The notes below the pieces were generated by a model. It was not told the origin of the DNA. It did not search any database and was given only the letters and a program-made list of their open reading frames with translations. This document shows positions 1,599-2,770 of a stretch of DNA of 10,449 nucleotides, one piece after another. The DNA is taken from the UHGV virus genome UHGV-1344453; one strand, 5' to 3'. Position 1 is the first letter of the stretch, and every line of letters begins with the position of its first letter. The translations under genes and the position numbers were made by a program. The DNA is from a virus.

Positions 1599-1844
1599 GT
1601 GACAACGAAGCACGCAAAAAAACCACATAACCGCGCCATTGACCTTACAGAGCACTGGCTGAGGGTGGCGATAAAAATCATCGACCGCAACGCGGGAGAA
1701 GGATACGCGAAAGCACATCCTGAACTAATAAGCGCATTCATGACCACAGCGGCGGCAAACTTTGCCACGCTGACAGAACGGGAGATTGCCGAAGCGGAAC
1801 AGGTAACAACCATCAACGTTAAAACCGGAGAGGTGGAATCATGA
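1599..1844 (+). CDS. Hypothetical small protein (~81 aa); start uncertain because the frame is open back into the N-run
   Basis: GTG at 1599 preceded by GAGG at 1587-1590. Stop TGA at 1842-1844 overlaps the ATG of the next gene (ATGA), suggesting translational coupling. No recognisable motif. Confidence 0.45.
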   Translation: MTTKHAKKPHNRAIDLTEHWLRVAIKIIDRNAGEGYAKAHPELISAFMTTAAANFATLTEREIAEAEQVTTINVKTGEVES

Positions 1845-2251
1845 CAGCACAGATAGCCGCTTACGGGCGGCTGGTGGCTGACCCGCAGTTAAAGACCACC
1901 AGCAAGGGCACACAAATGGCTATGGCAAGCATGGCGGTCCCCCTGCCGTGCAATCAGGCAGATGACGGACAGGCGACGATGTGGTTATCCGTCCTGGCGT
2001 TTGGCAGACAGGCCGACGCACTGGCAAAACACCACAAAGGCGAGCTGGTGAGCGTGGCGGGTAACATGCAGGTAAGCCAGTGGACAGGCCAGAACGGCGA
2101 AACGCGGCAGGGCTGGCAGGTTATTGCAGACAGCGTAATCAGTGCCAGAACGGCGCGACCTGGTGGGAGCCGACGCAAGACCACAGGCACACAGGGTAAT
2201 CAGCCACCAGCGGGAGGCGATGACCCTTACGGTGATGATATTCCGTTCTGA
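1841..2251 (+). CDS. ssb: Single-stranded DNA-binding protein (SSB), 136 aa
   Basis: RBS GGAGAGGTGG at 1828-1837. The N-terminal region aligns by eye to the OB fold of E. coli SSB. Gly/Pro/Gln-rich linker and the canonical acidic tail ending DDIPF. Confidence 0.85.
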   Translation: MTAQIAAYGRLVADPQLKTTSKGTQMAMASMAVPLPCNQADDGQATMWLSVLAFGRQADALAKHHKGELVSVAGNMQVSQWTGQNGETRQGWQVIADSVISARTARPGGSRRKTTGTQGNQPPAGGDDPYGDDIPF

Positions 2252-2261
2252 GAGGGTGACG

Positions 2262-2519
2262 ATGGTACATGACCGCATAGCGGAAGAACTCGAGGCGAAA
2301 GGCTTTTACCGGAGAGCGTCGGCGCGATGGGGTGAAGTCATGCTACTGGTGGAGACAGACAAGGAACGGGAGCACATCACGATGCGACGGCTGGAATGTT
2401 GCAGAAAATCGACAAGGCCAGCACTCGGGCCGGACAATTTCAGCGATATTAAAAAAGCCGCTGATCGTGTTTATGCTGAAATGGGATTAGATAAATTAAA
2501 GGGGGAAACATGCCAGTAA
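2262..2519 (+). CDS. Small regulator-like protein, probably PerC/Pch family (85 aa)
   Basis: ATG at 2262 with GAGGGTGA just upstream. The track ORF 2142..2519 overlaps the ssb 3' end, so the downstream start is preferred. Segment AEELEAKGFYRRASARWGEVM...MRRLECC matches my recollection of the conserved PerC-family core. Confidence 0.5.
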   Translation: MVHDRIAEELEAKGFYRRASARWGEVMLLVETDKEREHITMRRLECCRKSTRPALGPDNFSDIKKAADRVYAEMGLDKLKGETCQ

Positions 2520-2770
2520 CCACAGAGGAAATTAAACGACACCGCGAATTATTCGGCCTTGAACATCCGGCCCACACGACAACGGAGCGTTATCGCCAGC
2601 ACCTGGCGGCGGGGGCGATATTCTGGGTTGATCATCATGGTTTTTTACGCAGCACGCTTTCCGGTGAAATTCTGGCGGCTGGTCCTGAACAGATTGATGC
2701 GCTCATCGCATATCTGGAAAAGGTGAAGCCCCGCACAGTGCAATCAGTACCACCGGAAGACGTTAATTAA
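2510..2770 (+). CDS. Hypothetical protein (86 aa)
   Basis: Strong RBS AAGGGGGA before the ATG at 2510. Overlaps the previous gene by 10 nt and is the last gene before a terminator. No recognisable motif. Confidence 0.6.
   Translation: MPVTTEEIKRHRELFGLEHPAHTTTERYRQHLAAGAIFWVDHHGFLRSTLSGEILAAGPEQIDALIAYLEKVKPRTVQSVPPEDVN

What the first reader, a model, noticed from the sequence alone, without database searches (positions are those of the whole stretch)
1599..2770. Accessory slot between replicon and head operon contains two unassigned small proteins
The ORFs 1599-1844 (~81 aa) and 2510-2770 (86 aa) have no motif I can recognise. They sit in one tightly coupled operon with ssb and the PerC-like gene, bounded by the iterons and a terminator. 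In satellites this position often carries helper-interference, anti-defence or regulatory cargo. These are the best candidates in the window for an undescribed function, but I cannot assign one.
Basis: inference. Interest (0 to 1): 0.45.

Follow-up and report, generated by a model that had tools for sequence, protein, structure and literature searches.

The report
Two conserved unknown satellite-island proteins
The two small ORFs are real, conserved genes of unknown function at the end of the replication operon of an E. coli capsid-forming phage satellite; they are fixed parts of the element rather than swappable cargo, and the real cargo slot lies just downstream and is empty here.

Summary
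The window is an E. coli capsid-forming PICI (EcCIEDL933-like satellite) inserted next to thiM. Both ORFs exist as described and are translationally coupled with ssb and the PerC-like gene.

ORF-A (1599-1844) belongs to phrog_1231.
- Under purifying selection (dN/dS about 0.17).
- Detectable in 26% of complete E. coli genomes.
- First gene after the origin, and before ssb in almost every locus, in classical PICIs (95% identical in EcCICFT073) and capsid-forming ones alike.
- So it belongs to the replication module, not to cargo.

ORF-B (2510-2770) belongs to phrog_1957, an acidic roughly 80-aa family.
- The predicted alpha/beta fold is confident (pLDDT 90) and matches no solved or viral structure.
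- It is the last early gene before the capsid operon in capsid-forming PICIs of about ten genera.
- It can be absent, and E. coli carries three alleles only 40-48% identical.

The real variable slot lies between ORF-B's terminator and a conserved capsid-operon leader. Other genera hold 0.3-1.6 kb inserts there, including a PADLOC candidate defence system. In this window the slot is empty.

Function is untested. My inference is that ORF-A is a replication accessory and ORF-B a dispensable protein-binding modulator. Interest is modest.

The parts
1322..1562 (.). Replication origin. 10-11 bp iterons (ACTGTTCACC / GGTGAACAGT) in both orientations flank an AT-rich core. Positions 1519-1562 are N-masked and, by comparison with L001, hide one more iteron.
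1599..1844 (+). ORF-A, 81 aa, phrog_1231. It has a basic N-terminal tail (+3.7) and a predicted two-helix hairpin with an acidic second helix. It is the first gene after the origin and is translationally coupled to ssb.
1841..2251 (+). Satellite ssb, 136 aa (PF00436), with a C-terminal DDIPF tip.
2262..2519 (+). PerC-family small regulator, 85 aa (PF06069, E 2.5e-36). It also has a weak resemblance to the ANR family.
2510..2770 (+). ORF-B, 86 aa, phrog_1957. An acidic small protein with a confident alpha-alpha-beta3-alpha model. Nearly invariant residues are Y28, D41, H43, A56, Q61 and L69. It is the last gene of the early operon.
2777..2803 (+). Intrinsic-terminator-like hairpin (AGCCCAGG-UUUAA-CCAGGGCU) followed by U7. 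It ends the early operon. Relatives conserve its position but not its sequence.
2804..2809 (.). The cargo-slot position, empty in this element. Other genera carry inserts of about 0.3-1.6 kb here, mostly on the opposite strand.
2810..2852 (+). Conserved 5' element of the capsid-operon leader: TTTTGTAAATTATTTG followed by three TTGTNC-type repeats phased at 10 bp. It lies about 215-232 nt upstream of the capsid ATG in the loci where that distance was checked, and about 244 nt upstream in this window.
   Evidence: (D19)
2926..3053 (+). Structured capsid leader. A perfect 14-bp hairpin at 2926-2964 (dG -26.7, z -4.3). A hairpin at 3016-3045 plus U8 (dG -15.4, z -4.4) ends at the capsid ATG (3054) and encloses its AGGA Shine-Dalgarno sequence.
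   Evidence: (I9)

Best explanation
**What the interval is.** Positions 1599-2770 are the distal part of the early (replication) operon of an E. coli capsid-forming PICI. It is not that element's cargo slot.

**ORF-A (phrog_1231).**
- Shown: a conserved module gene of enterobacterial PICIs. It is always the first gene after the origin. It is translated in one coupled unit with the satellite's ssb.
- Inferred (about 0.4): a small helical-hairpin adaptor that works with SSB or ssDNA at the satellite replication fork or on the replicated concatemer. It is independent of which initiator and iteron type the element carries.

**ORF-B (phrog_1957).**
- Shown: a small acidic alpha/beta protein from a family spread over mobile elements of Gammaproteobacteria. 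In capsid-forming PICIs it is the last early gene, directly before the terminator, the cargo hotspot and the capsid operon.
- Inferred (about 0.45): a dispensable protein-binding modulator rather than a DNA-binding regulator. It would be made early after induction and would neutralise or redirect a variable partner. That partner could be a helper-phage protein or a host-defence protein, which would explain the divergent alleles.

**Status.** Gene reality, conservation, positions and the location of the true slot are shown. Both molecular roles are inferences from context, composition and predicted structure.
For: **Element identity**
- Pri/D5 helicase, iterons, ssb, PerC, HK97-type capsid, protease, portal, head closure protein, connector, HNH, TerS and TerL are all present.
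- The window is 99% identical over 1563-9416 to a 14.6-kb int-to-terL island in NZ_CP071954.
- It has the same architecture as the EcCIEDL933-type island of O157:H7 (preprint 10.1101/2022.09.08.507074).

**ORF-A**
- phrog_1231 at E 7e-49.
- 164 homologue clusters; the 120 listed range from 71 to 100% identity, and those named are from Enterobacteriaceae.
- Detected in 1434 of 5426 complete E. coli genomes, up to 6 copies each.
- In 80 of 80 IMG/VR loci it follows Pri and the origin, where that side is on the contig. It directly precedes ssb in all but a few. Those few are contig ends, one locus where PerC follows directly, and three with extra sequence before ssb. This holds whether or not a capsid module follows.
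- 95% identical in EcCICFT073.
- L043 equals the window from about codon 13 onward but has a 44%-identical Pri and different iterons.
- dN/dS is 0.17, like ssb at 0.19.
- Predicted helical hairpin, pLDDT 68.6, with charge polarity.

**ORF-B**
- phrog_1957 at E 1e-24; all 98 aligned members hit it.
- 102 homologue clusters; the named ones come from Xenorhabdus, Klebsiella and Pseudomonas.
- 40% identical (E 3e-21) to the gene at the same position in the O157 island.
- It is the gene before the capsid operon in Klebsiella, Xenorhabdus, Phytobacter, Serratia, Leclercia, Pectobacterium, Enterobacter, Kluyvera and Kosakonia. This holds irrespective of replicase type and of whether ssb or perC are present.
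- In Serratia and Pectobacterium no ORF-A, ssb or PerC homologue was detected between Pri and ORF-B, about 300 nt apart.
- Median pI 5.0; none of 98 members is above pI 8.
- Within-allele dN/dS is 0.12, yet the three E. coli alleles are 40-48% identical while TerS and TerL are 88-100%.
- Precise presence/absence polymorphism: absent in L015, L048, L054 and EcCICFT073. In L015 and EcCICFT073, PerC is followed directly by the same terminator.
- Distant members lie beside AIPR, an SMC-like ATPase or a DNA methylase, in an ICE, or as a reverse-oriented gene next to terS in a prophage.

**True slot**
- The distance from ORF-B to the capsid gene is 229-296 nt in the basal state and 580-1835 nt when filled.
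- The conserved leader stays with the capsid gene.
- The inserts are mostly on the opposite strand. One is the PADLOC candidate system PDC-M32 (E 3e-139).
Against: **General**
- No experiment bears on either protein.

**ORF-A**
- A Xenorhabdus homologue (56% over the core) occurs without ssb. One E. coli locus has ORF-A followed directly by PerC (L058). The link to SSB is therefore not obligatory.
- Capsid-forming PICIs of Klebsiella, Serratia and others lack ORF-A altogether, so it is not needed for the life cycle in general.

**ORF-B**
- Its constant position just upstream of the capsid operon would also fit a late-gene regulator.
- An acidic pI does not exclude DNA binding by a dimer.
- The nearly invariant D41/H43/Y28/Q61 cluster could mean ligand or metal binding rather than protein binding.
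- The defence-like neighbours of distant homologues are few and heterogeneous.
Confidence: 0.45

Rival explanations
1. One reading: the whole interval is an accessory slot, and both ORFs are exchangeable cargo acting in helper interference or anti-defence.
For: - Both proteins are small, unassigned and specific to mobile elements.
- ORF-B shows presence/absence polymorphism and strongly divergent alleles.
- Distant ORF-B homologues lie in accessory regions of an ICE, a prophage and islands.
Against: - ORF-A is invariant in position, with 88-99% identity to the window across the 80 IMG/VR loci and two PICI classes.
- The variable DNA maps downstream of ORF-B's terminator, not inside 1599-2770.
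- Neither protein hits PADLOC.
- For EcCICFT073, the genes located after the origin were expressed one by one, and only c1503 (rppA) reduced lambda plaquing (PMC6739421). The 95%-identical ORF-A homologue is the first gene after that origin. Its inclusion in that set is likely, but I could not verify it from the text.
Confidence: 0.2
2. ORF-B is the switch protein for the capsid (late) operon. It would be made at the end of the early operon and would activate or antiterminate transcription through the conserved leader (2810-3053).
For: - ORF-B lies directly upstream of the capsid operon in about ten genera, regardless of replicon type.
- The leader carries a conserved element with 10-bp-phased repeats and two strong hairpins. 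One of these is terminator-like and sits at the capsid ATG.
- Overexpressing alpA alone is used to produce EcCIEDL933 capsids, so the late operon is switched on by island-encoded functions.
Against: - The family is uniformly acidic (median pI 5.0). No HTH, zinc finger or other nucleic-acid-binding fold was found.
- Capsid-forming PICIs without ORF-B keep the same leader (L015, L048, L054).
- When cargo is inserted, the leader stays with the capsid gene and separates from ORF-B.
- ORF-B also precedes an unrelated lambda-E-type capsid module that lacks the element (L012, L023, L042).
- Homologues occur in elements with no adjacent capsid operon.
Confidence: 0.15
3. ORF-A is a regulator rather than a replication accessory. 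It might be a Rop-like copy-number controller or a transcription modulator acting on the origin-proximal region.
For: - A helical hairpin of Rop-like size.
- It sits immediately next to the origin.
- Its basic N-terminal tail could contact nucleic acid.
- In Xenorhabdus it occurs without ssb.
Against: - There is no specific structural or sequence match to Rop or to any regulator.
- The conserved core is the same for two unrelated initiator and iteron sets, which argues against origin-specific control.
- The basic tail is the least conserved part.
Confidence: 0.15
4. One or both ORFs are chance reading frames and not genes.
For: - They are short.
- ORF-A starts with GTG.
- Neither has a Pfam family.
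Against: - Full-length PHROG matches.
- Hundreds of homologues.
- dN/dS of 0.12-0.17.
- Shine-Dalgarno sequences and start/stop overlaps with the flanking genes.
- RefSeq annotates both as CDS.
- A confident structure model for ORF-B.
Confidence: 0.01

Closest known systems
EcCIEDL933, the prototype capsid-forming PICI (Alqurainy et al., preprint 10.1101/2022.09.08.507074), represented here by the O157:H7 island L002
   Same: The gene order matches from pri through iterons, ORF-A, ssb, perC, ORF-B and terminator to capsid, protease, portal, head closure protein, connector, HNH, terS and terL. ORF-A is 90% identical. TerS is 100% and TerL 94%.
   Different: ORF-B is a different allele (74 aa, 40% identity). 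An extra 42-aa ORF separates perC from ORF-B. The capsid is 73% identical. The integration site is roxA/phoQ rather than beside thiM. The preprint mutated only the packaging genes, so neither small ORF was studied.
EcCICFT073, the classical E. coli PICI (Fillol-Salom et al. 2019, PMC6739421; locus L106)
   Same: It carries the pri, origin, ORF-A (95% identical), ssb, perC block, ending in the same kind of terminator.
   Different: It has no ORF-B. Downstream lies a lambda-E-like capsid homologue, a decoration protein and RppA instead of a full HK97-type packaging module.
RppA/RppC and SaPI Ppi: small satellite proteins that bind the helper TerS
   Same: This is what ORF-B might work like. These are small proteins encoded after the origin, made on induction, that act by binding a helper protein and occur as divergent alleles.
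   Different: There is no sequence similarity to the 144-aa RppA of CFT073. ORF-B has a different size and a different predicted fold. EcCIEDL933 was reported not to interfere with its helper. No binding has been tested for ORF-B.
Satellite and PICI defence hotspots flanking the packaging operon (He et al. preprint 10.1101/2025.02.11.637232)
   Same: The hotspot 'before the packaging module' is at this locus. I located it between ORF-B's terminator and the capsid leader.
   Different: ORF-A and ORF-B lie outside it. In this window the hotspot holds nothing, and neither ORF matches a PADLOC model.
PHROG families phrog_1231 and phrog_1957 (unknown function)
   Same: Near full-length profile matches. 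All 98 aligned ORF-B relatives hit phrog_1957.
   Different: The PHROG entries carry no function. There are no Pfam or NCBIfam counterparts. There is no member in the GenBank phage collection by tblastn, so the families appear to live in satellites, prophage-like regions and other islands rather than in isolated phages.

Membership tests
Capsid-forming PICI (the element that carries the finding) | Own HK97-type capsid, protease, portal, head-tail connector/adaptor, HNH, TerS and TerL in one operon | tested here: met
   All are present in the window at 3054-9409. The annotated counterparts are in L001.
Capsid-forming PICI (the element that carries the finding) | PICI-type integrase, an AlpA-type HTH regulator and a primase-helicase with an adjacent iteron origin. 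Size 10-18 kb, with no tail or lysis genes. | tested here: met
   Pri and the iterons are in the window. The int and HTH regulator lie outside the window; I saw them in L001, which is 93% identical over the pri segment and 99% from ORF-A to terL. There the element spans int to terL, 14.6 kb, with no tail or lysis genes. RefSeq calls the regulator only 'helix-turn-helix transcriptional regulator', and I did not run a family search on it. The window's right end is chromosomal (thiM) directly after terL.
phrog_1231 (ORF-A) | Full-length match to the family profile | tested here: met
   E 6.8e-49, residues 2-81 against profile positions 4-83 of 83.
phrog_1957 (ORF-B) | Full-length match to the family profile | tested here: met
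   E 1e-24, residues 1-77 against profile positions 1-77 of 82. 98 of 98 relatives match.
Known anti-phage defence proteins (PADLOC-DB 2.0) | Match to any defence-system protein model | tested here: not met
   No family at E up to 1 for ORF-A, ORF-B, PerC or SSB.
Rpp (redirecting phage packaging) proteins | Sequence similarity to RppA/RppC, which are roughly 144-153-aa dimers with a TerS-like DNA-binding domain | tested here: not met
   ORF-B against the 144-aa CFT073 protein taken as RppA gives E 0.42 over 10 residues. I assigned that CFT073 gene as c1503/rppA from its length and position only. ORF-A is a two-helix hairpin.
Ogr/Delta-type zinc-finger late activators of P2/P4 | Cys4 zinc-finger motif | tested here: not met
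   Neither ORF-A nor ORF-B contains a cysteine (sequences).
Rop-like helical-hairpin copy-number regulators (considered for ORF-A) | Antiparallel two-helix hairpin that dimerises into a four-helix bundle and binds RNA kissing complexes | tested here: inconclusive
Variable cargo of the pre-packaging hotspot | Located between the early-operon terminator and the capsid leader, and replaced by unrelated genes in related islands | tested here: not met
   Both ORFs lie upstream of the terminator. The inserts in other islands lie downstream of the ORF-B homologue.

The most novel reading that the evidence does not exclude
ORF-B (phrog_1957) would found a new class of small acidic effector proteins with a previously unseen fold. 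Satellites, ICEs and prophages would use it to neutralise a variable partner, either a host defence component or a helper-phage protein. The three E. coli alleles would then be specificity variants produced by an arms race. This would make it an anti-defence or anti-helper factor encoded next to the satellite's own defence hotspot.
Probability: 0.22. Interest if true: 0.6.

Novelty: new member of a known kind. Interest (0 to 1): 0.33.

Why it matters
Capsid-forming PICIs are a recently described satellite class, and work so far has covered only their packaging genes. This analysis does three things.

- It places the boundary of the 'pre-packaging' hotspot to within a few bases. That is useful for mining satellite cargo and defence genes.
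- It shows that two anonymous genes routinely labelled 'hypothetical' are conserved building blocks. One is present in about a quarter of complete E. coli genomes.
- It nominates ORF-B as the best candidate in the element for an undescribed protein-protein function. ORF-B has a confident model with no structural relatives, divergent alleles, and homologues in several kinds of mobile element.

If ORF-A proves to be a partner of the satellite SSB, that would add a component to the little-studied replication module of Gram-negative PICIs. None of this overturns current views, so the value is incremental.

Tried and rejected
**Searches on the two proteins that found nothing**
- Pfam, NCBIfam and PADLOC scans of both proteins.
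- Pfam on all 98 ORF-B relatives gave only scattered chance hits.
- Profile searches of PDB sequences gave nothing below E 0.1.

**Structure comparisons**
- Foldseek of the ORF-B model against BFVD: best E 0.55.
- The AFDB50 library was not available.

**Sequence collections**
- Megablast and tblastn against GenBank phages found no match.
- tblastn against plasmids returned mis-filed islands and one weak partial hit in an IncFIB accessory region, which was uninformative.
- Rfam on 1250-3150 gave nothing at gathering score. The miRNA-like hits come from the iteron palindromes.
- No tRNA genes are present.

**Relatedness tests**
- ORF-A and ORF-B are not related to each other (hhalign probability 0.7%).
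- The three long repeat proteins in the representative search (P0133, P0148, P0159) were dismissed as repeat-boosted chance matches.

**Failed or unusable steps**
- Two attempts to seed search for related loci with broad ORF-B alignments failed for lack of a conserved 7-10-residue stretch.
- dN/dS of ORF-B against other alleles is unusable because dS is saturated at 1.2. It was recomputed within allele groups.

**Ideas rejected**
- That the conserved TTTGTAAAT element belongs to ORF-B. It stays with the capsid gene when cargo is inserted, and it persists in islands without ORF-B.
- That 'hypothetical gene 1792' of the cf-PICI preprint is ORF-B. By gene count it is more likely the small ORF between HNH and terS. 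This is unverified, because the figures are not held.
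Full report
**What the window is**

ORF calling and family scans show this gene order:
- a D5/P4-type primase-helicase (93-1310);
- an iteron field;
- four short genes;
- an HK97-type capsid gene, prohead protease, portal, head closure protein, connector, HNH, a P27-type TerS and TerL.

Positions 1563-9416 are 99% identical to a 14.6-kb island in E. coli SB0258h1. That island runs from an integrase to terL and has no tail or lysis genes. The gene order is also that of the O157:H7 island of the EcCIEDL933 type, the prototype capsid-forming PICI (preprint 10.1101/2022.09.08.507074).

The last kilobase of the window is chromosomal DNA next to thiM. The element therefore ends directly after terL. 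Megablast and tblastn found nothing related in the GenBank phage collection.

RefSeq annotates both in the near-identical island.

The apparently longer ORF-A frame from 1512 is an artefact of the N-masked stretch 1519-1562. In the unmasked relative that stretch contains a stop and one more iteron. The O157 island has ATG where the window has GTG.

The four genes are coupled:
- ORF-A and ssb overlap in ATGA.
- ssb and perC are 10 nt apart, with GAGG between them.
- perC and ORF-B overlap by 10 nt.

Upstream lie iterons ACTGTTCACC/GGTGAACAGT in both orientations. Downstream lies a hairpin plus U7 at 2777-2803. Its energy is unremarkable and the consensus scan missed it. However, related islands carry a hairpin plus T-run at the same place with a different stem sequence, which is what a functional terminator looks like.

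**Both are real genes**

ORF-A:
- It matches phrog_1231 nearly end to end (E 7e-49).
- It has 164 homologue clusters; the 120 listed range from 71 to 100% identity.
- Megablast detects it in 1434 of 5426 complete E. coli genomes, with up to six copies per genome.
- Its dN/dS against 80 loci has a median of 0.17, close to ssb at 0.19.

ORF-B:
- It matches phrog_1957 (E 1e-24).
- The word-indexed search found only four close clusters.
- The exhaustive representative search found 39 relatives. A profile search then found 102 clusters, the named ones from Xenorhabdus, Klebsiella and Pseudomonas.
- Y28, D41, H43, A56, Q61 and L69 are nearly invariant.
- Comparisons between alleles are saturated (dS 1.2). 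Within allele groups dN/dS has a median of 0.12.

Neither protein hits Pfam, NCBIfam, PADLOC or any PDB sequence.

**ORF-A belongs to the replication module**

In all 80 IMG/VR loci recovered with the ORF-A profile, the gene follows Pri and the origin wherever that side is on the contig. It directly precedes ssb in all but a few. Those few are contig ends, one locus where PerC follows directly, and three with extra sequence before ssb. About a third of these loci continue into a capsid-forming module. Among the rest, those with enough downstream sequence carry other or no capsid genes.

The classical PICI EcCICFT073 carries a 95%-identical copy as the first gene after its origin, followed by ssb and perC.

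Locus L043 is nearly identical to the window from about codon 13 of ORF-A onward. It nevertheless has a Pri only 44% identical and different iterons (GGTAGAGG). The conserved core of ORF-A is therefore not matched to a particular initiator or origin.

A Xenorhabdus capsid-forming PICI has a 77-aa relative, 56% identical over the core motif GEGYAKxHPELIxAFM. There it lies directly before the ORF-B homologue and without ssb. Capsid-forming PICIs of Klebsiella, Serratia and other genera lack ORF-A entirely.

For EcCICFT073, the genes located after the origin were expressed individually, and only c1503 (rppA) reduced lambda plaquing (PMC6739421). ORF-A's homologue is the first such gene. The text does not list the clones, so I take this only as weak evidence against a helper-interference role.

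**ORF-B is a position-conserved but dispensable gene**

The gene at the equivalent place in the O157 island is 40% identical (E 3e-21). ORF-B family genes are the last gene before the capsid operon in Klebsiella, Xenorhabdus, Phytobacter, Serratia, Leclercia, Pectobacterium, Enterobacter, Kluyvera and Kosakonia. This holds whatever the replicase (D5-type or DUF927/Toprim), with or without ssb and perC.

In Serratia and Pectobacterium, no ORF-A, ssb or PerC homologue was detected between Pri and ORF-B, which are about 300 nt apart. ORF-B also precedes the unrelated lambda-E-type capsid module of some CFT073-type PICIs (L012, L023, L042).

Yet ORF-B is missing from EcCICFT073 and from three capsid-forming loci. 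In L015 and EcCICFT073, perC runs straight into the same terminator.

E. coli carries at least three alleles, of 86, 74 and 82 aa, that are 40-48% identical. In the same elements TerS and TerL are 88-100% identical.

The family is uniformly acidic: median pI 5.0, 91% of members below pI 6, and none above 8.

More distant members lie in other mobile-element contexts:
- in a P. aeruginosa ICE near an MvaT-like gene;
- between an AIPR abortive-infection-type gene and an overlapping 646-aa gene;
- next to a DNA methylase;
- beside an SMC-like ATPase at the end of an integrase/Toprim island;
- as a reverse-oriented gene next to terS in a Pseudomonas prophage.

**Where the cargo slot really is**

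The distance from the ORF-B stop to the capsid ATG falls into two classes. It is 229-296 nt in the basal state (283 nt in the window) and 580-1835 nt in the expanded state.

Aligning the basal spacers reveals a conserved element. It reads TTTTGTAAATTATTTG followed by 10-bp-phased TTGTNC repeats, and it occupies window 2810-2852. The TTTGTAAAT core is invariant from E. coli to Xenorhabdus.

In the expanded loci where I checked, this element lies about 215-232 nt upstream of the capsid ATG. The extra DNA therefore lies between ORF-B's terminator and the element. Islands lacking ORF-B also retain the element.

The inserts are mostly on the opposite strand and differ between genera. In Kosakonia the insert is the two-gene PADLOC candidate system PDC-M32 (E 3e-139 and 4e-49). 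A Klebsiella 'plasmid' record, which appears to be such an island, carries a 170-aa reverse-strand gene there.

[quoted passage not shown] In the window only about 6 nt separate the terminator from the element, so the slot is empty.

**How it most likely works**

Shown:
- the gene structure and coupling;
- the conservation and positions;
- the slot boundary.

Inferred:
- ORF-A is co-translated with the satellite SSB and co-inherited with it, independently of initiator type. I read it as a small adaptor acting with SSB or ssDNA during satellite replication (about 0.4). A regulatory role is the main alternative (about 0.15).
- I read ORF-B as a non-essential protein-binding modulator of a variable partner, a helper-phage or host-defence protein (about 0.45, of which roughly half is anti-defence or anti-helper in the strict sense). 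The reasons are its acidity, the absence of any nucleic-acid-binding fold, its dispensability, its allele diversification and its occurrence in unrelated mobile elements.
- The late-operon regulator idea is attractive because of ORF-B's position and the structured leader. That leader includes the hairpin at 2926-2964 and a terminator-like hairpin plus U8 ending at the capsid ATG. The behaviour of the leader in ORF-B-less and cargo-bearing islands weakens this idea (about 0.15).

**Comparison and novelty**

The element is a member of a known satellite class. The two proteins are members of catalogued PHROG families of unknown function.

No paper in the library that I searched mentions either gene:
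- the cf-PICI preprints;
- the EcCIMP1 study, which discusses only the PerC-like gene;
- the Rpp study.

ORF-B is unrelated to the 144-aa CFT073 protein that I took to be RppA from its length and position. ORF-A and ORF-B are unrelated to each other.

I rate this a new member of a known kind, of modest interest. The most useful products are the precise hotspot boundary and the nomination of ORF-B for functional testing.

Noticed in passing
window 2810-2852: A conserved capsid-operon leader element: TTTTGTAAATTATTTG plus three 10-bp-phased TTGTNC repeats. The TTTGTAAAT core is invariant from E. coli to Klebsiella and Xenorhabdus. It lies about 215-232 nt upstream of the capsid ATG in the loci checked (about 244 nt here). 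It is likely the late promoter or an activator site, and the factor that binds it is unknown.
   Followed up: partly
window 2926-2964 and 3016-3053: Two strong hairpins in the capsid leader. One has a perfect 14-bp stem (dG -26.7, z -4.3). The other is terminator-like with U8 (dG -15.4, z -4.4), ends at the capsid ATG and encloses its AGGA Shine-Dalgarno sequence. This suggests antitermination or translational control of the packaging operon. The second hairpin is present only in the E. coli window and O157 types.
   Followed up: partly
P0143 (92 aa): A natural chimera. The N-terminal half is of ORF-A type and is fused in frame to the C-terminal half of an O157-type ORF-B. This implies a deletion that removed ssb and perC, or a mis-assembly.
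   Followed up: no
L043 5000-5420 compared with window 1300-1640: Mosaicism. An island nearly identical to the window from ORF-A codon 13 to terL carries a Pri only 44% identical and different iterons (GGTAGAGG). The recombination junction lies in the 5' end of ORF-A.
   Followed up: yes
window 1519-1562 and 3760-3772: N-masked stretches. The first hides an extra iteron and creates a false long ORF from 1512. The second splits the capsid gene in the ORF list.
   Followed up: yes
L095 8373-9861 (Kosakonia cowanii); L076, L092, L093, L108: Cargo in the pre-capsid hotspot of other islands. One is the PADLOC candidate defence system PDC-M32. Another is a recurring 168-170-aa reverse-strand protein with no family match, found in E. 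coli, Enterobacter, Kluyvera and Klebsiella.
   Followed up: partly
window 9417-10449: Sequence right after terL is chromosomal (next to thiM). This copy therefore sits at a different integration site from the SB0258h1 island (gcd/hpt) and from EcCIEDL933 and EcCICFT073 (roxA/phoQ). It also has no post-packaging cargo.
   Followed up: partly
L003 1-18261 (Xenorhabdus, NJAK01000002): Two copies of a capsid-forming PICI lie as an inverted pair, with their capsid modules pointing outwards. Another copy is on a second contig (L004).
   Followed up: no
window 2262-2519: The PerC-like protein also shows a weak match to the ANR antivirulence-regulator family (E 0.003). This echoes the EcCIMP1 study, where a PICI PerC-like protein repressed LEE instead of activating it.
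   Followed up: no
L023 1214-1519 and L024: Some islands carry an extra 101-aa gene inserted between ORF-A and ssb, which breaks the usual ATGA coupling.
   Followed up: no
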